NCBI GenBank assembly: GCA_013334655.1
Contig: JAAXXD010000002.1
Span: forward strand, 6,319 to 70,318
Direction of reading: 5' to 3'
Length of the DNA stretch: 64,000 nucleotides
From: Chlorobaculum sp.
GTDB taxonomy: Bacteria; Bacteroidota; Chlorobiia; Chlorobiales; Chlorobiaceae
Under the pieces are notes generated by a model. It saw only the letters and a list, made by a program, of their open reading frames with translations, was not told the origin of the DNA and ran no database searches. Positions 1,205-42,390 of the stretch are shown piece by piece. How positions within the stretch are numbered: the stretch's first letter is position 1; the number at the start of each line of letters is the position of its first letter. A program made the position numbers and the translations under genes.

Positions 1205-2974
1205 CTATATATCATATTCATATTCAATACTTTTTAATTGTTCGGTTGGTAAATAATCAGTTTTTGATTGCGTTTTCCTGCCTGTTTCTGAAATAAGATA
1301 TAAATTTCTTTTAGCACGAGAAGCAATCACATAAAGTAATTTGTTGGCATCTGCAATTCCTTTATCTGTTGCATGAAAAATACTGTCCCAATAAGGAAGT
1401 TTACCTTGAAGCAAACCAAAAGCAATAACAACATCAAACTCTTCTCCTTTTACACCATGACAAGTTTCAATAACAACTCCATTTCTTGGTTTAAAAAGTT
1501 TACGCCAACTATTTATATCATCTGGATATTCATATTCTTTATCCGCAAGTCTTTTTTCTATGCTTTGAAAAAACAAATCATATTGTTGTTTAAGAATAAG
1601 ATAATCTCCGATTTGAAATTTTAAGGACATTGAGAATTGTTCAAAAGCTTCTTTTAAATATTCAATTCCTTTTTCAATGTCAGGATTTATTGAATTTATC
1701 AATTTTAAAATCACTTTTTCATTCTGATACTCTTCATCTAATTCATGTTGAATAAACTCTTCCAATTCAATAATTAATTCTTTTGCCCAACGAATTCTTG
1801 TTAAGAAATAATTTGAACTTGGCTCGGTAAGTAATAATCGAACAAGTTTATACCAAAAATTATCTCTGCTTTTTCTAAATGGCGATAATCCAAAAGCATC
1901 AAAAGGTACATCAGGCAGTTTTGCTTTTAATTTTCTACCTAACGGTGTAATAAGTTGCCACTGTGGCGCAATTATGCAAATTTCATTATATGAGATACCA
2001 TTTTGATGTTCGTTGGTAATTAATTCAGCAATAAAATCTATTAAATTATCTTTGTTTAAGTCTTTAATGTATTTAATTACTCCTTGTTCATTTTCATATA
2101 TCACATTGATAGCATTTATATCAACCGCCTTAACTTGAAAATTTCTATAATAATCGACAAGACGCTGATGCGAACGCCAATTTCCATGTAATATAACTTC
2201 TTCGATGTTGATATTTGTTTCTTTTTCAATATCATTTTTGTTTTTTGCAATACCTCCCAAAGTTCCGTAAATTGCTTGATTTGGGTCACCAACGTAAACT
2301 ATTCTGGTCTTACCAACTTCGATGATTTTATGTAAAATAGCATATTGAAGCTCTTGTGTATCCTGATATTCGTCAACACAAATAATGTTGAATATTGAAG
2401 CTAAATTTGATTTAATTTCGGGGTGTTTTTTTAAAAGCAAAAATGCTAAATACAAAAGTAAATCAAAATCAATTAGTTTTTGATTTGTTAAATCACGATG
2501 GTACTCTTTTAATAACTCTATTTCTTCTTGGTTGATTGTTTCGTATTTGCCTGATATTGCAATTCTCGTATTGACTTTATAAAAAACAGAAAAATTATAT
2601 TTTTTTTTGTATATATCTAATAGATTTTCAGTGTATTCATTGTCTGCAATTGCAAAACCGTTTTTCAAAATATCAAGATAACCAGCATAGGGTCGTAATA
2701 TCCAATCAAGGCAAAAAGAATGAATTGTTCCTGCCCAAAGTTGTTTGGTATCAATATTTAATCTATCAATTCTATCTTTTATTTCATCAGTTTCTCTATT
2801 TGTAAATGTAAGAGCAACAATAAATTGCTTTGAATTATCCAGTTTATTCAATTCATATGCAACTTTATGGGTAAGAACTCTGGTTTTTCCACTACCTGGA
2901 CATGCCGTTATAAGTAAACTATTCGGACACGTTACCGCAACTATCTGTTCCTCTGTTAAACCTGATAAAATCAT
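1205..2974 (-). CDS. gajB: UvrD-family helicase, Gabija GajB-like
   Basis: ACPGSGKT, ALTFTN, GTIHSF, VDEYQD, VGDPNQAIY, HGVKGEEFD, LYVIASRAK; 4-bp overlap with the upstream OLD nuclease. Confidence 0.75.
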   Translation of the reverse strand: MILSGLTEEQIVAVTCPNSLLITACPGSGKTRVLTHKVAYELNKLDNSKQFIVALTFTNRETDEIKDRIDRLNIDTKQLWAGTIHSFCLDWILRPYAGYLDILKNGFAIADNEYTENLLDIYKKKYNFSVFYKVNTRIAISGKYETINQEEIELLKEYHRDLTNQKLIDFDLLLYLAFLLLKKHPEIKSNLASIFNIICVDEYQDTQELQYAILHKIIEVGKTRIVYVGDPNQAIYGTLGGIAKNKNDIEKETNINIEEVILHGNWRSHQRLVDYYRNFQVKAVDINAINVIYENEQGVIKYIKDLNKDNLIDFIAELITNEHQNGISYNEICIIAPQWQLITPLGRKLKAKLPDVPFDAFGLSPFRKSRDNFWYKLVRLLLTEPSSNYFLTRIRWAKELIIELEEFIQHELDEEYQNEKVILKLINSINPDIEKGIEYLKEAFEQFSMSLKFQIGDYLILKQQYDLFFQSIEKRLADKEYEYPDDINSWRKLFKPRNGVVIETCHGVKGEEFDVVIAFGLLQGKLPYWDSIFHATDKGIADANKLLYVIASRAKRNLYLISETGRKTQSKTDYLPTEQLKSIEYEYDI

Positions 2975-5057
2975 ACAAATGATAATAGTTTAGTTAATTG
3001 GTCGTTTGGTAGTTGCAATTTGTATTTATCCACTAAATCAGATGCATTAATTTCTGTGAATAGTGTTTGAAAAATTGATTGATTTGGATTTTGAGTGTCT
3101 GATTTTCCTTTATTTATCCTATATTCAACAATACTTCTTTCAACTAATGCAATAGTGTCTTTTACACAAAAAGCAATTGCATTTAAAATGTAATCAGGAA
3201 TAACAAATTTATAATCTATTTTATCACAAAGTTGAAGAGCAAACCAACCTTTTTGCTTCCTCTCTGCAATTTGCAATGCAGCATAACCGTATTCTTTTAC
3301 ATCTGAACTATCAATATTAGTCAAACAATTGTTTTTAGCGGTTATTGTACTATGATGTGTTCCAATGAATGATTTCTCAATAATCGGTTTAAAATAAGAT
3401 GCGTTACCAAATTTAACCAATTCTACTTCAAATATATATTCACCAAAGTAAGGTTTTACATATATGTTACCATTGGTATAACTAATTAAATCAGTTTTCC
3501 GATTTGCTCCACGTACTTCTGCTTCATTTGAAACACCAGTTATAGATTTATCTTCATCTGTAACAATTGAACATCTCTTTTTTATTCTGTTCTCGTGAAA
3601 AATATTAGCTATATTTTTGAACCCAGTAGAGCCTGTATTTATGATACTTAAACCAAGTTCATCGGGCATAATACCAAAAACCTCCTTGATAAGAGTAGGC
3701 AAAACAAAAAATTCAGCATCTCCTTCTACCATGATTACCGATTTTGCAAACAGTAATGTATTTCTACTTGCATCTAAATATCGTTCAAGGTGAATAATTT
3801 CATCAGAGGATAAACCATTAATTGGTTGGGAAACCTGAGTAAAATTATTCTTTTTGGTAAGAATATTTACAGAATTTATTTTACAAACCTCTGAAATATG
3901 CGTTGAATGCGTTGAATAAATGACTTGCGCTTTTTCTTTACCAATATTTTGAAAAATGGTTTTTTGTATATGAGTGTGTAAATGAGCTTCTGGTTCTTCT
4001 ATCAATAATAAGTAAGATGCTTTGTTTTTAGGCAATTGCATCTGATATGATAATAGTTTTAAAGAAAGAAAAACTAAATTAGCACCTCCTAAACTTAATT
4101 CTTCTATATTTGATGTCGGTTCACCTATATTTTCTCCGACCCGCAAAGTCAATTTTTTAAACAAGTCCTCTGTGTCATTTGGCAAATTTGATGTTATTTC
4201 AATTGTTGGTGAATATGTCTTGCCAACCGTATCTGTAATTTTCTTTTTGATTTCGCCAGACAACTCTTTGACCTTATCTAAACCACTAATCTTGTTATTC
4301 AGACTTGTTACAAGTGTTTCAACAGCTTCTTTTTCTATATCATCAATAGCTTTTTCATACTCGCTTAGAAGCGTAATTAACGGATTAGATTTATATAAAC
4401 GTAAATCAGAAATAACATCTCGCAATGCATCGGCATAAGTACATGATATTTCGTCATAAATAGTAAAAGAGCGATTGAAAACGCCTAATTCATCTAAACA
4501 TTTATCAGATGGATTTGGGAAAATATAATTCACAAAATCTCCAATGTGTGACTTGAAAAAAAATCATTAGAGAAATTAATGTTTTTCGCTTTACTTGTAA
4601 ATACTGGTTCATAATCATCAATTGAAATATTATCAATCAATGTTTTAAAATTAGTATCAGTCTTATCGGCAGCATCTAAATTGCTAAAATCAAATAATTT
4701 TTGTCGTGTTTTTTCGTTTGGTCTGAAATAAAAGTTAAAATTTCCATTCGTTCCTAATGTTCCTACAAAATGAGTAGCTAAACATTGAATTTTATCGTCG
4801 TTCGTTAGCTCATCAAACTCAACATTAATTATTAACCAATGACCTTTCCATGAACCAATGCTTCTATTAAAATCAGTGTCTTTCAAGTATTTTACATTTC
4901 TTGGTAAATTCTCGTCTAAAACCAATCTGATAGCATTAAAAATATTTGTTTTGCCAGAACCATTTTCACCAATCAAAGTGTTAATACCTTTTTTAAAAGT
5001 GAAAGTTTCATTTTGAAAATTTCTATAATTCCGTATTGTTAATTTTGAAATATACAT
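2971..5057 (-). pseudogene. gajA: OLD-family ABC-ATPase/TOPRIM nuclease, Gabija GajA-like, split by a 1-nt frameshift (ORFs 4530-5057 and 2971-4533)
   Basis: N part: MYISKLTIRNYRNF...GENGSGKT. C part: LSLGG, LLLIEEPEAHLH, STHS, TOPRIM VEGDAE and TDED. One extra T in the T8 run (4556-4563) joins the two frames. Confidence 0.75.
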
Positions 5058-19554: not shown

Positions 19555-19704
19555 GGGAGCGCCGAGCGCCTGCTCGGCACCTTTTTGGCGATTAACTCTC
19601 TTGTTTACTTTAGATTAACTTGGTTTTGTGACATTCAAAAAGTTTGGCAAGCCGAATTATCTGGAGCCTTTGGCTCCATTGCCGAGCAGGCGCTCGGCGC
19701 TCCC
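19555..19704. repeat. REPIN-like element: perfect 25-bp inverted repeat around a 100-bp spacer
   Basis: GGGAGCGCCGAGCGCCTGCTCGGCA (19555-19579) / TGCCGAGCAGGCGCTCGGCGCTCCC (19680-19704); each arm is internally palindromic. Confidence 0.8.
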
Positions 19705-19774: not shown

Positions 19775-22700
19775 CTACTGCTTCTCCGCCAGCTTCATCA
19801 GCTCCGGCAGCGGGGTCAGGCCCTTCAGCTCGGGCAGGTCAGCCGCCACCCAGTTGCGCGGCACCCAGCCGGGATCGGCAGTCGGCTCTTCGGCTTCATC
19901 GATATAGTGCAACTGCTCGGTTAAACTGCCTTTGCCGTCCCAGCGATTGTCGATGCGTGAGTATGAGAGCCAAGAGGTGTAATCGGCCGACAGGCACAAC
20001 ATTTCTTGCTTTAAGACGATGTTCCAGAGCCGTGCCGTTCCGTAAGTACCTCCGGTGAGGATGAAGTTTCCATCAGGGGAAAATGCACACGTGAGGATCG
20101 GGCGTTTTGATTCTCCTGCAATTCGCCAGATTTCTTCACCTGAGTCGATGCCCCAAAGTTGAGCGGTGCTGTTAGAGCCAGCAGTGAGAAGTGAGTTCCC
20201 GTCGGGCGAGAAAACGCAAGCGAGCATTGCGTCGCCGTGGCCTTTGAGCTGCCGAATTTCCCTGCCTGATGCGGTCTCCCAAAGGCGGGCGATGCCATCA
20301 TCGGCAGCGGTGACGAGAGTTTTCCCATCAGGCGCGAATTTACAGGCGCGAATCGAGCCGGAATAATGCTCGAATAATCGAATTGTTTCTCCTGAATGGG
20401 CGTTCCAGAGCCGTGCGGTGCTCTCTTTGCCGGAGGTTATGATCGTGTTGCCATCTGGTGAAAAGGCGCAAGAATAGATAGAACCGGAGTGCCCTTCAAA
20501 ACGCTGGATGAGCTTGCCTGAATGGCGATCCCAAAGCAGGGCGATACCGTCATTGTCAGCAGTGAGTACAGCGTTTCCGTTGGGAGAAAAAGCGCAGGTC
20601 AGAATCTCGGCGGAGTGTTCATTAAAAGAATGAATTTCTTTGCCCGATTGAACGTCCCAAAGAACAGCTAACTTGTCATCGCCAGCAGTGAGGATAACTG
20701 TGCCATCGGGTGAAAATTTGCATCCATAAATTCCAAAAGGGTGGCCTGAGAATTTCCGAACACGTTTACCGGAAGCAATATCCCATAAATGGGCACTGAT
20801 GTCTCCACCGGCGATGAGGATCAGGGTTCCATCAGGCGAGAAGGCGCAATCGTTAATATCATTGAATTGAGTATTGATACTGAGATTTTCGATGACAGGA
20901 TTTGTTGCATGATATCCGCTATTGTGCGGCAATCCCTTCGCTTTTGGCCACGTTGCTCCTGTGAGATTGACCGATGAAAGATTAGCATTGGTAACGTCTG
21001 CGCCGGCAAGTCTGGCACACTTCAGGTTTGTGCCTGAGAAATCTGCCCCATTTGCTTTGAGATGGCGAAGGTTTGCGCCCTCAACATTGGCGTTTTTGCA
21101 GCTAACACCTGACAGATCGATCTCTTGGGCTTCGATGTTCTGAGCAGAAACGTTGTTCAGGTTCGCTTCTTTAAGATGCGCATGTTTAAGTGATGCGGCA
21201 TCAAGCAAACAGTTCTCAAATGATGCTTTTCTGAGTTGAGCTGAGTCCAGATTGATGCCATTTAGGTGTGCACGGGAAAAGTCAATTTCTTCAGCATACA
21301 AGTGCATCAGTGAGACGATATACAGATTAGCACCTTGTAATTGCGCTTTTGGGGGAATGAGTTCTTGAAGAAATGGGACGAACCGTTTATCACTACTTCT
21401 GCTATAGGTTGCAAGCGCATTTTTACTCCGGGGATGAACGCGGTACAATGCCGTATTATATCCGATAAGCAGAGCATTCTCGGAAATTGTTGATCTGTAA
21501 GGGTTAGCGAGAATCGTCCGAATCGCAAGAGTCAGTTTGTCCGGGGTTGCTTTCTCCGATTCGACCAGTTCGAGAAAGAAATCGGTGGCTTCCTGATTGA
21601 CTCTTCCATATCCCAATACATCCGCGAAGCGATCATCCTTCAGCGCCCGGAACAGTGCGCGGGCGAAGAAGAATTCGAGGAAGCTTTTGTGGGAGAAGCG
21701 GTAGTAGCCGTCGGCGCTTCGGATGAGGAAGGCGGCGGTGCGCATTTCGAGATCGACCCGTTCGCTGTCGATAGTGCGGGAGAGCATCTGCTCCTTGCGC
21801 AGGAGCGCGGCGAGGTCGGCGTAGTGAATCTCGTTCTTCGGACGGCTCCAGAGTTCGCAGGCCATGCGTTCGAGCAGCTCCCTCATGTGATCCGGGTTAA
21901 CCTCGCCCTGGCTCAGCCGCACGGTGTTCAGCCAGCGGTTGGTGTAGGTGAGGTAGAGGTGCGCCGTCGTCACCTTGTCGCCCTGCTTGACGAGGTCGGG
22001 CAGCGAGGCGACGATCATGTCGAGCAACTGGGGGGTCGAGGCGATGTCGGAGAGGCCGTAGGTCTCTTCGATGAACTGCTCCGCCTTGTCGCCTTCGATC
22101 GTGCCGAGGCGCTTGTGCAGGTAGTCGGTGATCTGCGCTTTGGTGAAGACCGGCAGGGTGTCGATGGTGGCGTCGAAGGCGCGGGCGGCTTTGCCGAGGG
22201 GCGAATCGGATTCGAAAAGTTCGTCGCCACCCTCGACGGCGCGGCGGGCGCTTCTGGTGTCCCTGAAGAAGTGGCTGCGGGAGGTGATGAGCATCCGGTT
22301 GCCGCGAGCGGTGCGTCCGGCACTCGCCGTCGGGCGGGCGAGCTGGCGGAACTGCTCCTCGACGCTGCGTCCGGCCTGGGCGACCCCCATTTCGTCGAAG
22401 CTGTCGAGCAGGAGCACCACGCGCCCCGCTTCGAGCAGGTGCAGCACGATCTCGGGATTAAGCACCGCACGCAGTTCGGCTTCGAGATGCTCGCGGATCA
22501 GGCTTTCGAGCGAGATGGCGTTCGGGAAGTTACGCAGGTTGACGGCGATAGGCACGGGGCTTTCGGGATCGGTTTCGCACCTGCGGGCCAGCTCGTAGGC
22601 GAGCCGCTCGACGAGCGTGCTTTTGCCAGTGCCGTAGTCGCCGAGCACGAGCCACAACCGGCTGCCTGTGCCCGAAATCCAGTCGAGCGCGTGGGGCAGC

Positions 22701-24106
22701 ATCGGCGTCGCGTTGTCATCCGGCTTTTTTTCGAGCTTGAGGAGCTGATCGACGTAGGTGGCCGCGATGGGACTCGCCTCGTAGCGCTGGCGGATGCGGG
22801 CGAGGTATGGCGAAAAGTCGAAAAGTCCGCGCTCCAGCTCGTCGTAGGTAAGCGCCTGCATCCCCTGTTCGCGGGCGAAGCTGCGAGCCGCCGCGCTGAA
22901 ATCCTTCGCCGCCACCACCATGCCGCGAGCCTGCATCTGCCGCGCCGTCGAGCCGTCGAGCCACGTCCTGAAAATCTGCACGGTCTCTTTGGGAATGACC
23001 GCCTGATGATCCTTGCACTCTACGAAGTAAACCTCTTCCCGCCCGAAGTCGGCGCGTTTGCGGGCGATCAGATCGATGCGGTTGCTGTCGATCAACTGCT
23101 CCCGCTCGACGGTGTAACCAAGCAGCCGCAACAGATACGCCACCCGCTCCTCGAAGCTCTTGCCCTGCTCGACCGTGCTTCTGCCGGGACGGGAGACGAG
23201 ATCGGGCCGCTCTTCAGCGCTACGGCGAGCCGATTTGGTTTCGGCGATCACCTGCTGGCGAACCGCCTCAATTTTCTGTTCGAGGTCGCGATACGCTTTT
23301 GCTACAGGACTGTCTGGAAGAGTCGCCGCATACAGGTCTTCCGTAAACTGCAAGTCATCGTTAAATGGAATCGAGACGACTTCAGACTGTTTCATTCCGA
23401 AAGCCTCTTCCCAGATGGCTTCACCTCCCGTCCGGTATTTGTTTTTATCCGAAATCGGCGACGCGACGAGGATTCGCGTCAGATTCGGCAGTGGAGCTCG
23501 TGGCTTGAGCTTGCCTTCGCTGGCTGGTTCGAGCGCTTTCCAGACGTGGGCCAGTCCTCTGGTGTTCTGCCGACCGTAATTGCCGACCATTACGGTGACA
23601 TGGGGCAAAAGGGCGGCGAGCAAGCCGCCGATGTCGGTAATGCCGGTGCGGGAGTCGAGAATCACCGTCTCGAATCCCGCATCGCCAAACGCATCGAGCG
23701 CACGGCGAAAAAGCGTCAAGCCGCTGTCGAGGTCGCGCACAAGAAAATCGTCCCACTGAACATCCTGATACAGCCCGGCGAAATCCTTCTTTTCGCCATA
23801 GGCAGGCAGAATGCAAAGCTGCGCGGAGGTCGGCGTCTGGCAGGGGAGTCCCGCGAGCTTGTCGTAATCGGCATCCTTTGCGCTTTTCTTCGACTTTTGC
23901 CATTCGATCAACCACTCGAAAAAGCCCTCTTTGATAGTCCGCGAAGGATCGAGGCCGGGAATATTGTGCATCCCCGGTGCTTCGATGTCGAGGTCCCAGA
24001 GCAGCGTCTTGCCGCGACGGGCGCAAAGTACGCCAACATTGGCCGCCAGCAGGCTCCGCCCGACGCCGCCCTTGTAGCTGTAGAAGGTGACGGTGAAGGG
24101 AGTCAT
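19775..24106 (-). CDS. NLR-like multidomain protein: KGGVGR-type ParA/MinD ATPase + Mrr-like PD-(D/E)xK endonuclease + NACHT NTPase + pentapeptide repeats + 7 WD40 repeats
   Basis: FYSYKGGVGRS, WDLDIEAPG, ILDSRTG; GKSFEERV...RIDLIA...FVECKD; VLGDYGTGKST, LLLDSFDE, ITSR, FSHKSFLEFF; A(N/D)L pentapeptides; seven FSPDG...LW(D/N)-type repeats. Confidence 0.88.
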   Translation of the reverse strand: MTPFTVTFYSYKGGVGRSLLAANVGVLCARRGKTLLWDLDIEAPGMHNIPGLDPSRTIKEGFFEWLIEWQKSKKSAKDADYDKLAGLPCQTPTSAQLCILPAYGEKKDFAGLYQDVQWDDFLVRDLDSGLTLFRRALDAFGDAGFETVILDSRTGITDIGGLLAALLPHVTVMVGNYGRQNTRGLAHVWKALEPASEGKLKPRAPLPNLTRILVASPISDKNKYRTGGEAIWEEAFGMKQSEVVSIPFNDDLQFTEDLYAATLPDSPVAKAYRDLEQKIEAVRQQVIAETKSARRSAEERPDLVSRPGRSTVEQGKSFEERVAYLLRLLGYTVEREQLIDSNRIDLIARKRADFGREEVYFVECKDHQAVIPKETVQIFRTWLDGSTARQMQARGMVVAAKDFSAAARSFAREQGMQALTYDELERGLFDFSPYLARIRQRYEASPIAATYVDQLLKLEKKPDDNATPMLPHALDWISGTGSRLWLVLGDYGTGKSTLVERLAYELARRCETDPESPVPIAVNLRNFPNAISLESLIREHLEAELRAVLNPEIVLHLLEAGRVVLLLDSFDEMGVAQAGRSVEEQFRQLARPTASAGRTARGNRMLITSRSHFFRDTRSARRAVEGGDELFESDSPLGKAARAFDATIDTLPVFTKAQITDYLHKRLGTIEGDKAEQFIEETYGLSDIASTPQLLDMIVASLPDLVKQGDKVTTAHLYLTYTNRWLNTVRLSQGEVNPDHMRELLERMACELWSRPKNEIHYADLAALLRKEQMLSRTIDSERVDLEMRTAAFLIRSADGYYRFSHKSFLEFFFARALFRALKDDRFADVLGYGRVNQEATDFFLELVESEKATPDKLTLAIRTILANPYRSTISENALLIGYNTALYRVHPRSKNALATYSRSSDKRFVPFLQELIPPKAQLQGANLYIVSLMHLYAEEIDFSRAHLNGINLDSAQLRKASFENCLLDAASLKHAHLKEANLNNVSAQNIEAQEIDLSGVSCKNANVEGANLRHLKANGADFSGTNLKCARLAGADVTNANLSSVNLTGATWPKAKGLPHNSGYHATNPVIENLSINTQFNDINDCAFSPDGTLILIAGGDISAHLWDIASGKRVRKFSGHPFGIYGCKFSPDGTVILTAGDDKLAVLWDVQSGKEIHSFNEHSAEILTCAFSPNGNAVLTADNDGIALLWDRHSGKLIQRFEGHSGSIYSCAFSPDGNTIITSGKESTARLWNAHSGETIRLFEHYSGSIRACKFAPDGKTLVTAADDGIARLWETASGREIRQLKGHGDAMLACVFSPDGNSLLTAGSNSTAQLWGIDSGEEIWRIAGESKRPILTCAFSPDGNFILTGGTYGTARLWNIVLKQEMLCLSADYTSWLSYSRIDNRWDGKGSLTEQLHYIDEAEEPTADPGWVPRNWVAADLPELKGLTPLPELMKLAEKQ

Positions 24107-24732
24107 GATGCACTCCTCAGAAAACTTGCTCCGCGAGTGACTTCGATGCTGTTTTTCTGTTCGAGGCTTTTGGCGTGAAGCAATCCGGTTTCAGTCAGTT
24201 TCAGGATATTGTCTCGCCCATGCTTTCGTTTGGTGACGAGTCCATTGGCTTCGAGCGTGCTGATGAGCTGGGTAACACGCCCGGTGGTGACGCCGAGATG
24301 CGCCACAAGACCGGATTGCGGCTGCTCGCCATTGCCAGTCTGAAACAGGTAACGCAGGATTTCCGGCACGTTGCGGCGGGCCATTTGAGCTTCAGGATCG
24401 GCGTGGGCCAGATTGAGACGTCTCGCTTCGAGCATGTCGCTTGCTTCTTGCCAGCGATAGCGAAATTCAGCCGGAAGCGTTGCCGCTGCTTTGGATCTGT
24501 TCAGCGCATAATGAATCAGGCGTTGCAGTTCCGAAATGCCTTCACGATCGCCCGGATGGGCTATTGCTCTTGCCGACCAGACGGCAATCATCCGGTTGAC
24601 GGCGTTCAGCTCGTTGTCACTCCACCGTTCGAGATCAATGATCGCCACCATCAATTCAGCCGGAGTCGCTCTATCGACGAGCATCGCCGGGTCACTGACG
24701 TTAAGATTCAACGTGTTTTTCGGCGTGTTCAT
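24103..24732 (-). CDS. protein with C-terminal MarR-like winged HTH
   Basis: QSGLVAHLGVTTGRVTQLISTLEANGLVTKRKHGRDNILKLTETG; ATGA overlap with the NACHT gene. Confidence 0.8.
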   Translation of the reverse strand: MNTPKNTLNLNVSDPAMLVDRATPAELMVAIIDLERWSDNELNAVNRMIAVWSARAIAHPGDREGISELQRLIHYALNRSKAAATLPAEFRYRWQEASDMLEARRLNLAHADPEAQMARRNVPEILRYLFQTGNGEQPQSGLVAHLGVTTGRVTQLISTLEANGLVTKRKHGRDNILKLTETGLLHAKSLEQKNSIEVTRGASFLRSAS

Positions 24733-24740
24733 GATGCTAA

Positions 24741-24782
24741 AATGTTCTAAGGTTTTTTCTTTATAAACAATTTAACATTATA
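24741..24782 (-). promoter_or_regulatory. putative internal promoter (-10 TATAAT) overlapped by AATGTT...AACATT inverted repeat
   Basis: ATTATA at 24777-24782 (TATAAT on minus strand); AATGTT 24741-24746 and AACATT 24774-24779. Confidence 0.35.
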
Positions 24783-24808
24783 TAGCTGATAAAAGCTCCT
24801 CTTGGTAC

Positions 24809-26068
24809 TTATCTCACCAGTCTCAAATGAGAATTTGTACGTTTTTCAACGGTGAAAATGGTCAATCCAGGTTTACCGTCTTCATATTTGTCGTGATGAA
24901 CGAAGCCCTGATCAAACTCCTGCGCATCAGGCATCTGCTGATTGGCCACGGCGATGACCATACCTCTCGTGTCGTGAAGCGTTTTTGCAGCTAACTTGTG
25001 CGGCCCGAGCTTGTCGCTCATGCTTGGCACCAGCAGCCAGTCGAGCGGTAATGATTGCAGTACTGCGGCGGAACTTCCCATAAACAGGTCGCGACAGATG
25101 GTCATACCTATGAGTCCGATGGGTGAGGCAAGGCAGGTAATCGGTGTCGGCGAGGATTCGATCATTTCACCGCAATCTTTAAAGGTTACCCGCTCCCGTT
25201 TGTCCGAACCGAAAAGGGTGACGCCATCGAGTCCGCAAAGCGCCTCGGCGTGGTTCCTCCATCTGCTGTAGCATTGTTCGTGAAAGCTGCCGGGAATGAT
25301 GAGCGGAACAGAGAGGTCATGATCTTCACCGACCATGAGCGAGAGATCCATCATCTGTTCGCTGATTGCTTTTCGCATGTCTGCGGTGATGGTCATCTCC
25401 GGCATGATGAGGAGATGAACGCCAGCCTCATGAGCTTTTCTGATATGTTCAAGCGCGGCGGCAAGCCGTTGTTCTGCGTCATCGATACCATTGCAGATGA
25501 AAAACCTGTTGTCCGTATAACATATGTCAAGCTTGAGGCTATCGGTGAAGTGGATGATCCCGATTTTGAATAGTTCAGTCTCGAAACGACAGGCTGTCCA
25601 ATCCTGATGTCCTGAAGGAATGTCACAAAGATCGACCGGAATACCGTGAATATTGTCGAGTGGAATGACCCGGTGATGTTTCAGCCAGCAGGAGAGATTG
25701 CCGAATTGCCCGGTCAGTCTGCCGCCTCCGAAGCCGGGATAGAGCCGGAGCAATTTGGATTCTCCGAATCCGTCGTTGATGGTATCATGCGGAGTGGCGC
25801 TGTCTGGGCCGAAGATGCGGTGGCAGAGTTCATCGATGGTTTGCAGCCAAAGCAGCGGATCGCTCTCGATATCGGATTGCGTGACAGCGTCAGTCTTGTC
25901 AACGTCGAGAATCTCAAGCAGGGAATTTATTTGTGAATGCGAGTACATCAGTTCCCAATCATCGAGATTCCGACGTCCGTCAGGTAGTGGTTCCTGTGCC
26001 AGCCGACACAAGCGTGCCAGCGCCTGCCGGTAGCAGCGGGTGTTGATGAACTCGGCGACTTTATCCAT
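24809..26068 (-). CDS. carbon-nitrogen hydrolase (nitrilase superfamily) domain protein with unknown N-terminal domain
   Basis: E-K-C triad: HLLIMPEM, GSDKRE, IGMTICRD, followed by WLLVPSMS and AVANQ. Start MDKVAEF chosen; ORF extends to 26143. Confidence 0.75.
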   Translation of the reverse strand: MDKVAEFINTRCYRQALARLCRLAQEPLPDGRRNLDDWELMYSHSQINSLLEILDVDKTDAVTQSDIESDPLLWLQTIDELCHRIFGPDSATPHDTINDGFGESKLLRLYPGFGGGRLTGQFGNLSCWLKHHRVIPLDNIHGIPVDLCDIPSGHQDWTACRFETELFKIGIIHFTDSLKLDICYTDNRFFICNGIDDAEQRLAAALEHIRKAHEAGVHLLIMPEMTITADMRKAISEQMMDLSLMVGEDHDLSVPLIIPGSFHEQCYSRWRNHAEALCGLDGVTLFGSDKRERVTFKDCGEMIESSPTPITCLASPIGLIGMTICRDLFMGSSAAVLQSLPLDWLLVPSMSDKLGPHKLAAKTLHDTRGMVIAVANQQMPDAQEFDQGFVHHDKYEDGKPGLTIFTVEKRTNSHLRLVR

Positions 26069-26209
26069 AAGCGGGAAGATGCCGGTTGCGGAAGCCTGTC
26101 TGTTAGGGTACTGCCTTTTGTATGATACGTGTTTTCGGCGCAAGAGTCAACAGCGGAGCGGGAATGTCGAGGTGCCGCGCCGCCCGCTGGATGAGTGGCC
26201 TCTCCAGCT

Positions 26210-27346
26210 TCACTCCACGAAATCGACTCGCCAGATTCGGGCGGCGGCTTCAGCCATTTGCTTTTGCCTCGCTTCGACTTTTTGCTCGTCCCAGCCATCC
26301 TGCCCGGCGATTTCGCGCGTGATTCCGAAGGCGCTCTGTTCGTAGGCGGCGCGTTTCGTTGAGTAATCGCCCTTGCCCAACTCCTTGTTTCGCGTGGTTT
26401 CGAGCGGCTTCATGTTGCCGATCCGGTAGACCATGCGCTCCTGTTTCGTTTCGTCAAGAAACAGCCACGCTTCAGAGGGCGATTCCGGCAAAACGTGCTC
26501 CAGGCTGTACGCGCCGCTTTCAAAATCGAAATTCTGCTCCGATCGCTCTCGCTCGATTTCAAACAGGCTGTACCGCATAACCTTTTTGTTCTGGCTGTTG
26601 GTCGTGCGCAATTCCTTGTCGGCAAAGGCGATCATGAACTGCTGGTCGTCGGGATAAAGCTCCCGAAGAGCGGCCATCACGTCAGAAGGATGTCCAATCG
26701 ATCCCATCGAAACCTTCCATGCGATCTCGTTGTAGAGGCGCTCCTGCTCGTGGGTCTGTAGATCGCAGATAACGTTGTACCGGAAGGAGATGGCGGCAAC
26801 TGCTTTCATGATCCCAGTAAACTCTTTTCTTTCATATTCATAAAATTTCCACCAGCAAGCTATCAGCATGGCGAGCGGCTGACGGACGTTGAACATCAGA
26901 AGCTGTTCAAGCGCCGATTTCTCCTCGTCGCTCCACGTCCCGTCCTGCGGATCGCGCAATGCGGCATAGACGGCGGCCAGATGATCGAAATCGTGCAGCA
27001 GCTCGAAAGCTGCTTCGTGGGTGACGATGCGCTTGCGAATGGTCTTGAACAGATCGGTTTTGCGCACTAGACGGCTCCTACTGTTCCAGTATACGCGCAG
27101 GAATTCGGGAAAACTTTCGCTGCCAAGCAGAGTGACAATCTGCTCCTACCGCTCTTCGAGCAATTTCAGTTCGGTTTCGTGCGTCTGTTGCGAACTGATC
27201 ACCGAAAAAAGGTAGTTTTTCAGCAGGTCGTTGGCCGAAAGTCTCACGCCACGAGCGTTCAGCGTCTCGAACACCTTGAAGGCGTTGAGTTCGTCCGTCA
27301 CCGTGATGACCGTAAAGAAGAGCTTGTCCACGAGCGAGCCGAGCAT
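26210..27346 (-). pseudogene. 5'-truncated DUF262-DUF1524 (GmrSD-like) HNH nuclease with in-frame amber stop
   Basis: NAFKVFETLNARGVRLS..DLLKN (DUF262 end); ER*EQIV (TAG at 27146-27148, in frame with the downstream ORF, probably from TGG); SLEHVLPE...RIGN..PLE...N HNH motif. Confidence 0.8.
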
Positions 27347-28213
27347 CGCGGAGCCGACCTCTCGGGAGCGAGGCTCGACGGCGTCAACTTCAGCCGTAGC
27401 GCCATCGACAGCCTTACCCGCTACGATGGTGTCGAGGGTTGCGATATCGGCGTCAACGGCCTCTATTCACCATCGACCGACTCGGCGGCGCTCATGCGTC
27501 TCGACCCGCCCGGCAACTCCATGCAAGGCGCCAACGCCGAGGCGGTCGTCGAGAGCCTGCGCCACGCCCGCAAGCTGCACACCTTATCGTTGCTGCTCGC
27601 AGGCATCGCGCTGCTTTTCATCGTCTTCAAGCCCAAAACCATCACCCTGCCGTACCTTGCCGGATCGTTCAAGTTCGACGATCTCAGCTACGCCTTTCTG
27701 GCCACGATTCTCTCCACCGGCATACTCAGCCAGGTCGCCTCGTTTATCGACTCCGCCCTGCAAGGCGCGCACTACCTCAACGACCGCCGCGCGGCGATGC
27801 TGGTTGGCCACTTTCCGTGGCTGCTCTCCAAGTTCGAAAGCGACCCCGCGGGCAAGCGCCAGTCCAGAATCCTGCGCTTCTTCATGATCTTTCATCCGCT
27901 GATCTATATCTACTTCTTCGTCCCGTGGAGCGCCCTCGCCATCGGCGACTGGAGCGCGGTCATCAGCCACTATGAGCAGATGCCAGTCATCTTCGGCGAA
28001 TACCTTCTGCCGTTCGTCTACATCATCCTCATCCGCATCTGCCTGCGCATCTTCAAGCTTTCTGAAGGTTTCCAGAAGCCCATTCTTTTCGACGCAGAAA
28101 CCGAACGCAGCCGCCGCATCGACATGGAACGCCTTGCCGAAGCCTTCGAACGCCAGGCCAACCTCACCGCCGAACTGGTGGAGTTGTTGAAAGAGAGGAG
28201 GAAAAAGAGTTGA
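27347..28213 (+). pseudogene. 5'-truncated paralog of the pentapeptide/membrane protein at 5916-6995
   Basis: RGADLSGARLDGVN...TRYDGVEGC...LSEGFQKPILFDAETER is nearly identical to 5916-6995; N-terminus missing and abutting the DUF262 remnant. Confidence 0.8.
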
Positions 28214-28697
28214 GCCTATTCCGCCCTCAGGACATCCATGCATCCCTGTATTTAACCGTAGAAAAATTGGATTTTTTAAAAAAATCGTACATTTTTCGTA
28301 AAACTGGGGAATTATTCCTTTTGCCGGGCGATTTTATCTCTCATGGTAAAAGGTTTTATTCTGGCTGATTTGGCAGTTGCAATCCCCTTGCATTTTTTCG
28401 TTTTTTTACTCTTTTTTTCGAAACGGCATCGTAGTTCATTTTTACATAAAAGCTCACCTGTAATGCATTTATATGAATTCAGGATGAGAGTAAGGCATGG
28501 TACAGTTTATTTGTATATAATACTTGTTACTGAGCTGATTTGAACCATGGCCAATGATTCATATATAAAGATTTGATACAAATTGCGTTTCGGATATTGA
28601 TTATGAAAGCAGAAAACAGTTTTGTCGTATTGTATCGCTAAAGCCACGGCGATACATATGTAACAGTGGCTAATTCTAACAACCAAGGAGGCTTATT

Positions 28698-30566
28698 ATG
28701 GCTAACACGAAAGATGTTCAAATCCGTATCTTGCCGTCAAGTATGAAGCTCGCAGGCGCTGATGCAAAATTCGAATCCAAGGTTACTGATATCATTAAAT
28801 CTCAAATTCTTCCCAAAGCAAAAGCAAAAGCCAAAGCCGAGTATTATCGCGTAGATGTCAAGATCAAGCCGACAATAGAGAAGGCACCAAAACACTTTAT
28901 TGCCTATCTGTTAAGAAAAGACATTTATCTGGCCGAAACTGTTCGGGTCAATGTTGACAAAGATTTCAACGTCACTGAAACCATCTGGAATTACGATGCC
29001 TCAAAGGAAGAAGATGATGCTGAAGCGGAAGCGGATTCCAAAGGGTTATCAAGTGCTGAATATTCAAGCTATGATTTCATTGCGGCAACGCCAGTACCTG
29101 ATATTCCTACTGCAAAGAAGGCGGTTGAAGATTTGAATAACCTGTTCATCAGTCTTGGGTTCAAATCAAAGATGCTTCTTGGGCCTGAAGCCACAGTAGA
29201 AAACTATAAAAATTATCTCACGAGCGGCCTGAAGGGTTTTGTCAATGTCGGTCATGGTAATACCAATGAGGTTATTCTTTACAATGGGAGTCTGAATGCA
29301 ACATGGTTCAATAGTGTTGCCAATCAGGCGGTGAAACCCTCTGTTGTGTACTTCAACTCTTGCCAGGTTTTCAATGATCCTTTGAAATCAGCGGTATTGA
29401 AAGCTGGCGCTCGCACCTTTATAGGAGGTATTGTTAATTTGTTGATTGGGCCTTCAGAAGCTGTGTGCGTGTGTTTCTGGACCAAGATTTTGAAATCCCT
29501 GACAGCTATGGGGGACGCTCTGCACCAGTGTGAGAAGGACAAATATCCTCAGCAAGGTGCTCATGGTATTGGTGGAGACACCGGGCTTTTTGCCAAAACA
29601 ACCTGTAGTGAACTTTGTGTTGGCTCCAATGGTGACGGAAGACTTGAAGTGTTTGCTGTTGGTTCAGATAAAGCGTTATGGCACATCTGGCAGACCGCAC
29701 CGAACAATGGATGGAGCAGTATAGCAAGTTTGGGTGGAATTGTCAGGGGTATTCAGGTCGGCAAAAACAAGGATGGCCGTCTTGAAGTCCTTGCTATCGG
29801 TTCGGATAATGCGTTATGGCACATCTGGCAAACCGCGCCAAACAGCGGCTGGAGCGGCTGGGCAAGCCTTGGCGGTATTGTTAAAGAGCTTGCTGTATCG
29901 AGTAACGCTGATGGTCGCCTTGAAGTGTTTGCCGCTGGTTCGGATAATGCGTTATGGCACATCTGGCAAACCGCGCCAAATAACGGATGGAGCGGCTGGG
30001 GAAGCTTGAAAGGAATTGTCAGGGGCATTCAGGTTGGCAGAAACAAGGATGGTCGTCTTGAAGTTTTTGTTATCGGTTCGGATAATGCGTTATGGCACAT
30101 CTGGCAAACCGCGCCAAACAGCGGATGGAGTGGCTGGGGAAGCCTTGGCGGTATTGTTAAAGAGCTTGCCGTATCGAGTAACGCTGACGGTCGCCTTGAA
30201 GTGTTTGCCGTGGGTTCGGATAATGCGTTATGGCATATCTGGCAAACTGCGCCGAACAACGGATGGAGCGGTTGGGCAAGCCTTGGCGGTGTTGTCAGGG
30301 GCATCAAGGCTGGCAGAAACAAGGATGGTCGTCTTGAAGTCTTTGCTATCGGTTCGGATAATGCGTTATGGCACATCTGGCAAACCGCGCCAAACAGCGG
30401 ATGGAGTGGCTGGGGAAGCCTTGGCGGTGTCGTGAAAAAACTTTCGGTATCGAACAATGCTGATGGCCGTCTTGAACTCTTTGCTATCGGTTCAGATGAT
30501 GCCATATGGCATATCTGGCAAACTGCGCCGAACAACGGATGGAGCGGTTGGGCAAAACTGTCCTGA
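28698..30566 (+). CDS. putative caspase/gingipain-like (clan CD) peptidase fused to a 7-bladed PLL-type lectin beta-propeller
   Basis: AAGGAGG RBS. FVNVGHG and YFNSCQV (His/Cys dyad), AGARTFIG; seven 46-aa DGRLEVFAxGSDNALWHIWQTAPNxGWSGW repeats. Confidence 0.7.
   Translation: MANTKDVQIRILPSSMKLAGADAKFESKVTDIIKSQILPKAKAKAKAEYYRVDVKIKPTIEKAPKHFIAYLLRKDIYLAETVRVNVDKDFNVTETIWNYDASKEEDDAEAEADSKGLSSAEYSSYDFIAATPVPDIPTAKKAVEDLNNLFISLGFKSKMLLGPEATVENYKNYLTSGLKGFVNVGHGNTNEVILYNGSLNATWFNSVANQAVKPSVVYFNSCQVFNDPLKSAVLKAGARTFIGGIVNLLIGPSEAVCVCFWTKILKSLTAMGDALHQCEKDKYPQQGAHGIGGDTGLFAKTTCSELCVGSNGDGRLEVFAVGSDKALWHIWQTAPNNGWSSIASLGGIVRGIQVGKNKDGRLEVLAIGSDNALWHIWQTAPNSGWSGWASLGGIVKELAVSSNADGRLEVFAAGSDNALWHIWQTAPNNGWSGWGSLKGIVRGIQVGRNKDGRLEVFVIGSDNALWHIWQTAPNSGWSGWGSLGGIVKELAVSSNADGRLEVFAVGSDNALWHIWQTAPNNGWSGWASLGGVVRGIKAGRNKDGRLEVFAIGSDNALWHIWQTAPNSGWSGWGSLGGVVKKLSVSNNADGRLELFAIGSDDAIWHIWQTAPNNGWSGWAKLS
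29610..30563 (+). repeat. 7 x 138-bp intragenic tandem repeats in alternating A/B pattern
   Basis: TGGCACATCTGGCAAACCGCGCC-type segments recur every 138 bp; alternating SNADGRL / NKDGRL units give a 276-bp super-period. Confidence 0.9.
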
Positions 30567-39734: not shown

Positions 39735-39942
39735 TTCGGCGTCGCGCCAGATTTCACGATTTGACGAAGAGAAGCTGCCTCCCGCTGAGGCAGCTTTTTT
39801 TATTTCAGGCTTTTGTATCAGCGTGCTTTTCAGTGATCCGTAGCGGCTGAATATGCAGATAAAAACGTATCTTGTCGAGGTAGATTTTTCCCGTCAGCGC
39901 CCCGGTTTCATCCATTGAGTGTTTCCTCAGCAAGGAGCAAGA

Positions 39943-42390
39943 ATGAAAGTCTTTATCAGTTCAACTTACAAGGATTTGATCGACTACCGCGCCGCCGCGA
40001 TTCGCGCCGTGGAGGGGACGAATTATCAAGCGGGAAAAATGGAAATCTTCGGCGCTCGTTCTGAAGAGCCGGTGGATGCTTGTCTGAAAGAGGTCGAGGA
40101 GTGTGAGATATTCATTGGCATTTATGCCCTTCGCTACGGGTTTGTCCCTGACGGCTCGGACATTTCCATTACCGAGATGGAATATCTTCACGCAAAAGGA
40201 CAGGGCAAGACGATCTATTGCTTTTTGCTGGATGAGGAAAATCAGGGCTGGCTTACAAAATGGATCGATGACGAACCGGGAAAATCAAAACTTAGGGATT
40301 TAAAACAACGAGTTCAGAAAGCTCTTGTTTGCGATTATTTCACCACGCCTGACGATTTGAGAGCAAAAGTTGCCAATGCTTTGAGCCATTTCGTTGCCAA
40401 CCACAATGATCCATCGGTTTTCGGGCCACACTTTCCACTTCCCAAACCTACAGGCAACTCGCTTCCGCGAGAGGGATTCTTTGTCGGTCGAGACGCGGAG
40501 CGCAAGATCATCGCTGAAGCGTTGTCGCCGGAGTCGCGCACGTGGGGGGCGCTGATCGATGGGCCGGGAGGTATCGGCAAGACGGCGTTGGCTATCAAAG
40601 CCGCGCACGAAGCGCCAGAGGGTTTGTTTGAACGCAAGATTTTCATCTCCGCAAAGGTTCGCGAACTGACATCGGATGGCGAAAAGCCGCTGACCGATTT
40701 CACTCGCCCGACTTACCTTGCGATGCTTGACGAATTGGGTAAGGAGCTGGGCGAACAGAATCTGGAGCGACTCGCCCCCGACGAACGCCCGAATGTTCTG
40801 CGGCTCGCGCTGGCGGACAAAAGGGCGCTGATCGTGTTCGACAATCTGGAAACCTTGCCCGAAGAGGAGCGCACGCGCCTGTTCCAGTTCCTCTCGCGCC
40901 TGCCTGATGGAAACAAAGCCATCGTCACCTCGCGCCGCCGCACGGATGTTGATGCCCGCATCGTGCGGCTCGACCGCCTGTCGCGCGACGAAGCGATGGA
41001 GCTGATCGCCGAGCTTGCGAAAAAATATCAGAAGCTTGCTCGCGCCTCGGAGAAAGAGCGCAATGATCTGTACTCCATGACGCACGGCAATCCGCTGCTC
41101 ATTCGCTGGATTGCCGGGCAGTTGGGGCGTCCCGGCTCGCAGTGCCGCACCATTGCCGACGCCTGCGCATTCATCGAAAAAGCCCCCAAAGGCAACGATC
41201 CGCTCGAATACATTTTCGGTGATCTGCTGGAGATCTTTACCGAAAACGAGACGCTCGTCCTCGCCGCTTTGACATATTTCTCCAAACCAGCCAAACTGCA
41301 ATGGCTGTCGCAAATGGCAGGCTTGCCCGAACGTGCCGCCGAAACGGCGCTGGAAGATTTGGCTTATCGTGCAATCTTGATCTCTAATCTCGAAGCTCAG
41401 ACGTTTTATTTGCCACCTCTTGCTGCAAGATTTATCAAAACCTGCCGCTCCGAAGTCGTTAGCCAGACAGGTAATGCGTTGTTAAAACGATCCTATGCCC
41501 TTTCAATGCAATATGGGGGGAGGGACAACTTTGATCGCTTAACACTGGAAGCAGAATGGGGGCTTATTTCTGCGGCTTTACCGGGAATGTTGCTTGGAGA
41601 CACTAAACGCTTTCAAATAATGTGCGATCAACTGGATAAATTTATGAATTATTCTGGTCGCTGGGATGATCGTATTTGGCTTTGTGAACAAGCTGAAAAA
41701 CAGGCTATTTCCATTAATGATAAAGATATTGCGGGTTGGCGCTCACATCACGCAGGAATAACATATTTTAGACGTAACCAGTCCACGGAAGTACTTGCGT
41801 GTGCCGATCGTATTGCCGACCACTGGCAAGGGAGCACTCCTCGCAAGAAAGCAATTGCTATTCGGTTGCGTGGACTTGGCCAAATTTTAAAAAAAGATTA
41901 TCCAGCCGCTATCACGGCTTATTGGCAAGCCTTGAATATGTACCTGTCTATTTCGTCAGAAAGTAAAGATGTTGTCGTTGCGTTGAATGACTTAGCAAAT
42001 GCAGAAGATGCTAATAAGGACAAAGTGGCTGCTGAGCGACATTATAGAGAAGCGATAAGAATCTCAAATAAAATCAATTATCAGGAAGGCGTCGCTTCCT
42101 CGACAGGTAATTTAGCTGAGCTTACCCTTGATCTCGACCAATGGGAAGAAGCTGAAATTCTTTCTCGAGAAGCACTTGCAATAGCTGAAAAAATAGAAAG
42201 TATAGAAGTTATTGCTTTTACATCTCGCGTTCTTTCTAAAGCATTGCTAAAACGAAATCTCAATCTTTCAGAAGCTAAATGTTTTGCTCGTCGTTCTATC
42301 GAGATTTACACACACTTGCGAGTGTTAGATGAAATAAATATATCTCAGCAAACCCTCGCGGAGATCGAGAAAGCAATGCGCGGCGAGTGA
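39943..42390 (+). CDS. DUF4062 + STAND (NB-ARC-like) ATPase + TPR protein
   Basis: MKVFISSTYKDL..R, RYGFVP...SITEMEY; FVGR, IDGPGGIGKT, VFDNLE, VTSR, GNPL; C-terminal TPRs; AAGGAG RBS. Confidence 0.88.
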   Translation: MKVFISSTYKDLIDYRAAAIRAVEGTNYQAGKMEIFGARSEEPVDACLKEVEECEIFIGIYALRYGFVPDGSDISITEMEYLHAKGQGKTIYCFLLDEENQGWLTKWIDDEPGKSKLRDLKQRVQKALVCDYFTTPDDLRAKVANALSHFVANHNDPSVFGPHFPLPKPTGNSLPREGFFVGRDAERKIIAEALSPESRTWGALIDGPGGIGKTALAIKAAHEAPEGLFERKIFISAKVRELTSDGEKPLTDFTRPTYLAMLDELGKELGEQNLERLAPDERPNVLRLALADKRALIVFDNLETLPEEERTRLFQFLSRLPDGNKAIVTSRRRTDVDARIVRLDRLSRDEAMELIAELAKKYQKLARASEKERNDLYSMTHGNPLLIRWIAGQLGRPGSQCRTIADACAFIEKAPKGNDPLEYIFGDLLEIFTENETLVLAALTYFSKPAKLQWLSQMAGLPERAAETALEDLAYRAILISNLEAQTFYLPPLAARFIKTCRSEVVSQTGNALLKRSYALSMQYGGRDNFDRLTLEAEWGLISAALPGMLLGDTKRFQIMCDQLDKFMNYSGRWDDRIWLCEQAEKQAISINDKDIAGWRSHHAGITYFRRNQSTEVLACADRIADHWQGSTPRKKAIAIRLRGLGQILKKDYPAAITAYWQALNMYLSISSESKDVVVALNDLANAEDANKDKVAAERHYREAIRISNKINYQEGVASSTGNLAELTLDLDQWEEAEILSREALAIAEKIESIEVIAFTSRVLSKALLKRNLNLSEAKCFARRSIEIYTHLRVLDEINISQQTLAEIEKAMRGE

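What the first reader, a model, noticed from the sequence alone, without database searches (positions are those of the whole stretch)
19775..26068. Candidate undescribed three-gene immune module: nitrilase-family enzyme + winged-HTH + ParA-REase-NACHT-pentapeptide-WD40 NLR-like protein
Seen: three intact co-oriented ORFs, with wHTH and NACHT genes coupled by an ATGA overlap, inserted after nadB and next to a decayed GmrSD-like nuclease. The nitrilase keeps its E-K-C triad. The large protein carries two different P-loop NTPases (KGGVGR-type ParA/MinD and NACHT), an intact Mrr-like PD-(D/E)xK nuclease and two sensor-type repeat arrays. Known: bacterial NACHT/STAND proteins (bNACHT, Avs) are antiphage pattern-recognition effectors, and nitrilase domains occur in DRT type 1 defence RTs. 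I know of no named system combining a free nitrilase, a MarR-like protein and this architecture. Inference: a regulated sensor-nuclease defence system in which the C-N hydrolase makes or removes a small molecule or modification.
Basis: partly seen in the sequence, partly recalled or inferred. Interest (0 to 1): 0.85.

Follow-up and report, generated by a model that had tools for sequence, protein, structure and literature searches.

The report
Nitrilase toxin-antitoxin wired to NLR nuclease
Three genes that travel together across several bacterial phyla (a nitrilase-type enzyme, a DNA-binding protein predicted to bind it, and a large sensor protein carrying a nuclease) likely form an untested anti-phage suicide system whose general type was predicted in a preprint of October 2026.

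Summary
All three genes are intact and the catalytic motifs are conserved. The gene order nitrilase, wHTH, KGGVGR-ParA is kept in 47 of 48 sequence clusters, and a second copy lies elsewhere in this genome. It is not undescribed: Li, Burroughs and Aravind (bioRxiv, 22 Oct 2026) predict 'TA-ParA' systems whose subtype (i) is a C-N hydrolase toxin with an HTH antitoxin and a ParA-sensor, and the class includes NACHT plus beta-propeller forms. None has been tested. Added here and not found in that paper's main text: (1) a predicted hydrolase-wHTH complex (0.69, best control 0.00); (2) a conserved inverted-repeat operator-like element between the hydrolase and wHTH genes rather than in front of the operon; (3) ClpXP-type Ala-Ala ends on 15 of 31 wHTH proteins; (4) the hydrolase gene is broken in 10 of 48 clusters, and the wHTH never alone. 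Best reading: a labile, self-regulating antitoxin holds a nitrilase effector until the NLR senses phage, and the NLR also carries a DNase. Rival: the hydrolase is an anti-repressor that switches on the NLR nuclease. Substrate, trigger and phage phenotype are unknown.

The parts
26122..26150 (-). sigma-70-like promoter candidate for the hydrolase gene (TTGACT-17-TATCAT)
   Evidence: 10 of 12 matches; 9 such sites in the region vs 4.5 +/- 2.1 in shuffles, so a candidate only
24809..26068 (-). C-N hydrolase (nitrilase fold, about aa 160-414; triad E224, K290, C325) with a family-specific N-terminal domain (aa 1-160); putative toxin
24737..24785 (.). operator-like element: YTAAA-N5-YTAAA, 19-bp spacer, inverted second arm TTTAR-N5-TTTAR; ends 4 nt before the wHTH start codon
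   Evidence: binding by the wHTH is inferred
24103..24732 (-). helical N-terminal domain + MarR-like winged HTH + C-terminal tail (ends -SAS here, -AA in 15 of 31 homologues); putative labile antitoxin and repressor
19775..24106 (-). ParA-REase-NACHT-pentapeptide-WD40 NLR-like protein, 1443 aa
23237..24106 (-). KGGVGR-type (ConB2) ParA domain; K12, R17, D38, D40, A43-P44 and D151 invariant in 26 of 26
22832..23167 (-). Mrr-like PD-(D/E)xK nuclease; D345 in 26 of 26, E363 in 25 of 26, K365 in 23 of 26
21527..22657 (-). NACHT module (Walker A GDYGTGKS, Walker B LLLDSFDE, winged helix FSHKSF)
20939..21346 (-). pentapeptide repeats; the most variable part of the large protein (40-68% identity to 8 relatives)
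19991..20857 (-). WD40 beta-propeller, about 7 repeats; putative sensor (13-14 repeats scored in some relatives)

Best explanation
This is a conserved three-gene module that likely works as an anti-phage suicide system: the wHTH protein is predicted to bind the nitrilase and likely holds it inactive as an unstable, self-regulating antitoxin, while the NLR-like protein would sense infection through its repeats, would then cut DNA with its Mrr-like nuclease and would use its ParA domain to free the nitrilase. Shown: gene order, co-occurrence, intact catalytic motifs, the internal inverted-repeat element, the Ala-Ala ends and the decay pattern. Predicted by a model: the hydrolase N-terminal domain packs on the wHTH helical domain and, in the best run, also on its DNA-recognition helix, away from the catalytic triad. 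Inferred: the hydrolase is made from its own upstream promoter. Free wHTH binds the element between genes 1 and 2 and represses itself and the NLR, so antitoxin is made until all hydrolase is bound. ClpXP keeps the free pool short-lived. Infection (NLR oligomerisation, or a translation stop that lets the wHTH decay) frees the hydrolase and raises NLR-nuclease synthesis. The hydrolase substrate is unknown. By analogy with the DRT1 nitrilase effector it would be an essential amide- or amine-bearing metabolite. The ParA-to-antitoxin step comes from the preprint's model and was not tested here.
For: Order hydrolase-wHTH-ParA in 47 of 48 clusters (74 hand-scored loci) and in 14 of 14 distant genome loci from four phyla. 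Converse: 23 of 23 loci that show the start of the ParA gene have the wHTH directly upstream. Complex score 0.69 vs best of 3 controls 0.00; that mark was reached by 116 of 157 solved complexes and 2 of 215 mismatched pairs (counts hold only roughly, own alignments used); runs agree in at least 91% of contacts and partner pLDDT is at least 79. No PDB sequence matches the wHTH N-terminal domain (all 29 hits start at profile position 113 or later). Hydrolase divergence tracks the wHTH N-domain (Spearman 0.82-0.84) more than ParA (0.63-0.64) over 16 loci, and L046 has swapped hydrolase + wHTH as a unit. Hydrolase broken with intact wHTH in 9 of 48 clusters, both broken in 1, wHTH broken alone in 0. 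L040 keeps both genes intact after losing the NLR gene, the element and the tail. wHTH ends in AA in 15 of 31 vs 0 of 31 hydrolases and 0.8% of 876 long host ORFs; clpX is in the genome. Precedents: DRT1 nitrilase is an abortive-infection effector (PMC13275509, passages); an Mrr-like REase is the predicted effector of bNACHT25 (10.1101/2022.07.19.500537, passages).
Against: No toxicity, phage or expression data. The predicted interface does not include E224, K290 or C325, so simple active-site blocking is not indicated, and it includes recognition-helix residues R152 and Q155, which suits an anti-repressor equally well. The element does not lie in front of the hydrolase, unlike a classic type II TA operator. 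Co-divergence of neighbouring genes also follows from linkage alone. The wHTH being never lost alone also fits a repressor of a toxic nuclease, and some breaks may be assembly errors. A terminal AA is necessary but not sufficient for ClpXP (PMC10862746, passages), and the window's own copy ends in -SAS. Only about 4 of 25 loci have a genuine defence neighbour among the nearest genes.
Confidence: 0.5

Rival explanations
1. The hydrolase is a regulator, not a toxin: it binds the wHTH repressor, covers its recognition helix and perhaps modifies it or reads a metabolite, and so lifts repression of the wHTH-NLR transcript. Killing is done only by the NLR's nuclease. The logic resembles the CapP-CapH switch of CBASS (recalled).
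For: The element controls only genes 2 and 3 by position. The interface avoids the triad and touches R152/Q155. The nuclease is present in 43 of 43 clusters where it can be seen. The hydrolase is broken beside an unbroken NLR frame in L085, L154 and L057.
Against: L040 keeps hydrolase and wHTH intact without the element or the NLR. Distant members have ParA-TPR or ParA-other with no detected nuclease (L104, L155), where the hydrolase is the only evident enzyme effector.
Confidence: 0.25
2. An addiction or selfish module, or a stress-response module, with no anti-phage role.
For: Mostly inserted alone between housekeeping genes (nadB, rimO, menH-menD); few defence neighbours; frequent decay.
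Against: NLR architecture with fast-diverging and swapped sensors; intact nuclease; related bNACHT proteins are anti-phage.
Confidence: 0.15
3. Restriction-modification-like layout: the hydrolase is the protective part (like a methyltransferase with its own promoter), the wHTH is a controller protein, and the NLR nuclease is the delayed killer.
For: The layout (own promoter, then operator, HTH and coupled nuclease gene) parallels C-protein R-M systems (search listing and abstract starts only).
Against: The hydrolase is broken while the NLR frame with its nuclease is intact in L085, L154 and L057, so it is not an essential antidote.
Confidence: 0.07

Closest known systems
TA-ParA apoptosis systems, subtype (i) (Li, Burroughs, Aravind; bioRxiv 10.64898/2026.10.19.760177; abstract, sections 10, 24, 25, 26, 41 and passages read; figures and supplements not seen)
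   Same: C-N hydrolase + HTH + ConB2 ParA (Arg for the Walker A Lys, PG after sensor-1) fused to a sensor; NACHT + beta-propeller is named as one sensor form of the class; conserved gene order.
   Different: The main text gives TPR as the usual sensor, and section 24 names no REase or pentapeptide repeats in the ParA protein (a 'whole' NACHT module may include it in Fig. 5F, not seen). The words operator, promoter, degron, Clp, palindrome and inverted repeat do not occur in the main text. Prediction only; no experiment.
bNACHT / Avs STAND proteins, e.g. bNACHT25 (Kibby et al., 10.1101/2022.07.19.500537; passages read)
   Same: Mrr-like REase + NACHT + C-terminal repeats; predicted DNA cleavage on activation.
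   Different: Here a ParA domain is grafted on the N-terminus and two partner genes are obligate neighbours. No PADLOC Avs or bNACHT model matched the large protein.
DRT1 / UG5 RT-nitrilase (PMC13275509, passages; PMC13436386, listing only)
   Same: Nitrilase with E-K-C triad as an abortive-infection effector of unknown substrate.
   Different: No reverse transcriptase; the hydrolase is free-standing with its own N-terminal domain; no PADLOC nitrilase model matches the window protein, and only 1 of 4 distant family members tested hits one, weakly.
C-protein-controlled type II restriction-modification systems (search listing)
   Same: An operator in front of a small HTH gene that is coupled to a nuclease gene, with the third gene separately promoted.
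   Different: No methyltransferase; the HTH is MarR-like, 209 aa, and predicted to bind the third gene's product.

Membership tests
TA-ParA subtype (i) | C-N hydrolase gene with intact catalytic residues | tested here: met
   fold Z 21.5; E224, K290, C325 invariant
TA-ParA subtype (i) | linked HTH gene | tested here: met
   MarR-like wHTH directly downstream in all 48 clusters scored
TA-ParA subtype (i) | ConB2 ParA: Arg in place of the Walker A Lys, PG after the DxD sensor | tested here: met
   KGGVGR[ST] and D38-x-D40-x-E-A-P in 26 of 26; definition from the paper's section 12 passage
TA-ParA subtype (i) | ParA fused to a variable C-terminal sensor (TPR, or NACHT + beta-propeller) | tested here: met
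   NACHT + pentapeptide + WD40 here; TPR in L104; DUF4062-NACHT-FGE fusion in L035 and L042
TA-ParA subtype (i) | placement of this ParA in the paper's phylogenetic clade | not tested
   the paper's alignments and supplements were not available
type II toxin-antitoxin | direct protein-protein binding of the pair | tested here: inconclusive
   the model supports binding but does not show it: 0.69 vs control 0.00; mark reached by 116 of 157 solved and 2 of 215 mismatched pairs
type II toxin-antitoxin | toxicity neutralised by the partner | not testable with these tools
   only the indirect decay pattern
type II toxin-antitoxin | autoregulatory operator in front of the whole TA operon | tested here: not met
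   the element lies between the two genes; upstream of the hydrolase the same score is 16 of 20 or less in all 29 loci scored
type II toxin-antitoxin | protease-labile antitoxin | tested here: inconclusive
   AA ends in 15 of 31; degradation not measured; the window copy ends in -SAS
bNACHT (NLR-related) | effector + NACHT module + C-terminal repeats | tested here: met
bNACHT (NLR-related) | phage protection that depends on the NACHT | not testable with these tools
   needs a plaque assay
DRT1/UG5 | reverse transcriptase fused to or beside the nitrilase | tested here: not met
   no RT domain among the module proteins or the flanking ORFs scanned

The most novel reading that the evidence does not exclude
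The nitrilase is an enzymatic anti-repressor: it grips the wHTH across its DNA-reading helix and uses its Glu-Lys-Cys site to modify the repressor or to read a metabolite, so switching on an NLR nuclease through the internal operator. That would be a new kind of transcriptional trigger for bacterial NLRs and would overturn the preprint's toxin label.
Probability: 0.25. Interest if true: 0.78.

Novelty: new member of a known kind. Interest (0 to 1): 0.5.

Why it matters
The kind is predicted but untested, and the substrate of immune nitrilases is an open question that the DRT1 structure paper poses outright. A free-standing nitrilase with a predicted cognate partner, an operator sequence and a degron-like tail gives direct handles: toxicity and rescue, metabolomics, operator reporters. 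The two diverged copies in one genome (hydrolase 43%, wHTH 58%, NLR 66% identical) give a built-in test of cognate specificity. It would also show how a ParA switch couples an NLR to a second effector.

Tried and rejected
GmrSD-like neighbour as a part: rejected; not found in other fetched loci. DRT1/UG5 membership: rejected, no RT. Named PADLOC system: no model fits; the PDC-M28B hit covers only the ParA domain. Broad alignment A1 was too diverse for motif scans, so narrower alignments were used. Expression: one RNA run shared 0.07 of the words and gave only scattered short contigs, so it is uninformative. The consensus scan found no sigma-70 promoter in the hydrolase-wHTH gap, so an internal promoter is inferred, not found. 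A ParB-like 'RG-x-x-hydrophobic' motif in the wHTH tail (likeness recalled) was only loosely conserved (14 of 31 by a loose pattern) and is not claimed. Weak hits L105-L110 were set aside; the five of them scanned (L105, L107-L110) are other nitrilases or nitrilase fusions. Literature: 'KGGVGR' occurs in one unrelated paper; searches found no experimental study of this module. Earlier scan notes had nothing on this sequence or genome. dN/dS was not computed.
Full report
Observation. The window comes from a green sulfur bacterium (Chlorobiaceae, judged by the names of the closest homologues). Three intact co-oriented ORFs lie on the minus strand: 24809-26068 (419 aa), 24103-24732 (209 aa) and 19775-24106 (1443 aa), the last two overlapping in ATGA. 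The large protein has a KGGVGR-type ParA domain above the NCBIfam cut-off, an Mrr-like nuclease and a NACHT domain, pentapeptide repeats and a WD40 propeller. Its model matches NLRP3/NOD2 NACHT domains and Soj. The 419-aa protein scores below the Pfam cut-off, but its model has the nitrilase fold from about residue 160 (Z 21.5, rmsd 3.3 A, 218 aligned). E224, K290 and C325 are invariant in 100 of 100 homologues. ParA K12/R17/D38/D40/D151, nuclease D345 and the NACHT Walker residues are invariant in 26 of 26 relatives; nuclease E363 is in 25 and K365 in 23. nadB is the convergent neighbour. The GmrSD-like gene upstream is decayed and appears in no other fetched locus.

Co-occurrence. The same genome holds a second copy in the same order on contig C117, next to rimO (hydrolase 43%, wHTH 58%, NLR 66% identical; its NLR runs off the contig). 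A hydrolase profile hit 17 of 87 genomes of the host family (one hit weak) and gave only weak hits in 7 other genomes of the phylum sample. It hit 4 of 401 genomes of the order of a Rhodoferax seed at E below 1e-30, seed included, and only the seed among 301 of the Holophagales seed's phylum. The module is therefore patchy. All 14 loci from the genome collection (Holophagales, several Betaproteobacteria, Lysobacterales, Gemmatimonadaceae, Chloroflexota) have hydrolase, wHTH and ParA-REase-NACHT in this order. I scored 74 loci by hand; they fall into 48 clusters at 95% wHTH identity. A ParA gene is third in 47. Of these, 43 show ParA-REase-NACHT, 3 end within the start of the gene, and 1 (L155) has ParA with another C-terminus. 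L040 has no third gene. Left out: 9 loci whose contigs end too early (L003, L045, L068, L073, L078, L082, L097, L098, L100), 7 weak hits (L104-L110; L104 does have a middle gene and ParA-TPR), one duplicate and two loci without a hydrolase hit. Conversely, 23 of 23 family loci showing the ParA start have the wHTH directly upstream. Sensors vary: about 7 to 14 WD40 repeats, or an in-frame fusion to DUF4062-NACHT-FGE. Pentapeptide and WD40 parts diverge fastest within the NLR. Defence linkage is modest: of 123 nearest neighbours from 25 loci, genuine PADLOC hits fall in about 4 loci. Further R-M and NACHT neighbours were seen by Pfam.

What is known. Li, Burroughs and Aravind (bioRxiv 10.64898/2026.10.19.760177; I read the abstract, sections 10, 24, 25, 26, 41 and search passages) predict ternary 'TA-ParA' systems. 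Subtype (i) pairs a C-N hydrolase toxin with an HTH antitoxin and a ParA fused to a sensor, most often TPR but also a NACHT module with a beta-propeller. Their ConB2 signature (Arg in Walker A, PG after the sensor motif) is met here. So the system is not undescribed, but it is only predicted. Figures and supplements were not seen and may already list this clade.

New details. (a) A model supports binding of the hydrolase to the wHTH: 0.69 against a best control of 0.00. That mark was reached by 116 of 157 solved complexes and 2 of 215 mismatched pairs (rough here, as my own alignments were used); runs agree in at least 91% of contacts and partner pLDDT is at least 79. The interface uses the hydrolase N-terminal domain (closest contacts at 151-157) and wHTH helices 63-79 and 98-120. 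In the best run it also touches recognition-helix residues 152-163, and it does not include the triad. No PDB sequence matches the wHTH N-domain. (b) Hydrolase divergence tracks the wHTH N-domain (rho 0.82-0.84) more than ParA (0.63-0.64) in 16 loci, and L046 carries a hydrolase and wHTH like the C117 copy in front of a ParA-NACHT like the window's. Linkage alone can give this. (c) The gap between hydrolase and wHTH (about 36-120 bp) holds YTAAA-N5-YTAAA, a spacer, and the inverted arm. It scores 17 of 20 or more in 22 of 30 loci (8 of 15 outside Chlorobiaceae) and beats composition-matched shuffles at p up to 0.05 in 25 of 30. Upstream of the hydrolase the score is 16 or less in all 29 scored. 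In the 2.43-Mb genome the only 20 of 20 site is the C117 copy; the window's copy scores 18, tied with one unrelated site. The motif was read by eye from these same sequences, so the test is partly circular. (d) The wHTH ends in Ala-Ala in 15 of 31 and in AA/AS/SA in 23 of 31, against 0 of 31 hydrolases and 0.8% and 2.6% of 876 long host ORFs. This also holds in loci without the ATGA overlap. Terminal Ala-Ala is the critical but not sufficient ClpXP signal (PMC10862746, passages), and clpX is present. (e) The hydrolase is broken beside an intact wHTH in 9 of 48 clusters, both are broken in 1, and the wHTH alone in none; some breaks may be assembly errors. L040, which lacks the NLR, also lacks the element and the tail but keeps both genes intact. 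The preprint's main text has none of the words operator, promoter, degron, Clp, palindrome or inverted repeat.

Mechanism. Most likely (0.5), the hydrolase is an effector held by a labile antitoxin. The position of the element gives a simple circuit: wHTH is made until all hydrolase is bound, then free wHTH shuts off itself and the NLR. On infection the NLR would oligomerise, activate its nuclease and, through ParA, free the hydrolase; loss of free wHTH would raise NLR synthesis. Precedents: DRT1's nitrilase is an abortive-infection effector of unknown substrate (PMC13275509, passages), and bNACHT25 carries a predicted Mrr-like effector. The main rival (0.25) is that the hydrolase is an anti-repressor and the nuclease the only killer. 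The interface on the recognition helix and the element's position fit it; L040 and the distant members without a detected nuclease argue against it. A non-defence addiction or stress role (0.15) and a protective hydrolase (0.07) are weaker. No expression or phenotype data were obtained.

Verdict. A real, conserved module and a new member of a recently predicted, untested kind, with new regulatory detail that makes it directly testable. Interest 0.5.

Noticed in passing
G000:C117:1-5642 (L164): Second, diverged copy of the whole three-gene module next to rimO, with a perfect 20 of 20 operator-like element and a wHTH ending in -IAA; the NLR runs off the contig end.
   Followed up: yes
window 1205-5057: Low-GC (about 29%) Gabija locus: GajB intact; GajA is in two ORFs (4530-5057 and 2971-4533) that match consecutive parts of one PADLOC model.
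   Followed up: partly
window 19556-19704: 25-bp perfect inverted repeat about 100 bp apart between nadB and the NLR stop; 7 copies within 2 mismatches in the genome, mostly paired; REP- or MITE-like (label recalled).
   Followed up: partly
window 26210-28243: GmrSD/HEC-06-like gene with an in-frame stop, whose 5' part appears replaced where a 344-aa opposite-strand ORF (27179-28213) lies.
   Followed up: partly
L035:4250-10048, L036, L042:7192-12960, L159: At the menH-menD site the ParA-REase-NACHT has lost its repeats and is fused in frame to a DUF4062-NACHT-FGE protein (about 1920-1930 aa, two NACHT domains; Pfam run on L035 and L042); in sister loci the two genes are separate.
   Followed up: partly
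window 39919-42390: A second STAND-type protein: DUF4062, NB-ARC/AAA_16 and TPR.
   Followed up: no
window 28698-30566: 622-aa protein with six Trp-rich tandem repeats resembling beta-propeller lectins, below cut-off.
   Followed up: no
window about 26125-26137; also L050, L066, L044, L046, L164: Conserved AAAACACGTA motif adjoining the -10 box candidate upstream of the hydrolase in six close loci.
   Followed up: no
L163:3909-7577: Chloroflexota locus with a 430-aa and a 298-aa gene of no Pfam family before a KGGVGR-family ParA-TPR gene; possibly another TA-ParA type.
   Followed up: partly
L105:10022-13774, L107:6467-10666, L109:2219-4912: Large fusions carrying nitrilase domains (nitrilase-HAD, C-terminal nitrilase, TPR-nitrilase) that weakly match PADLOC CARF-nitrilase and RT-nitrilase models.
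   Followed up: partly
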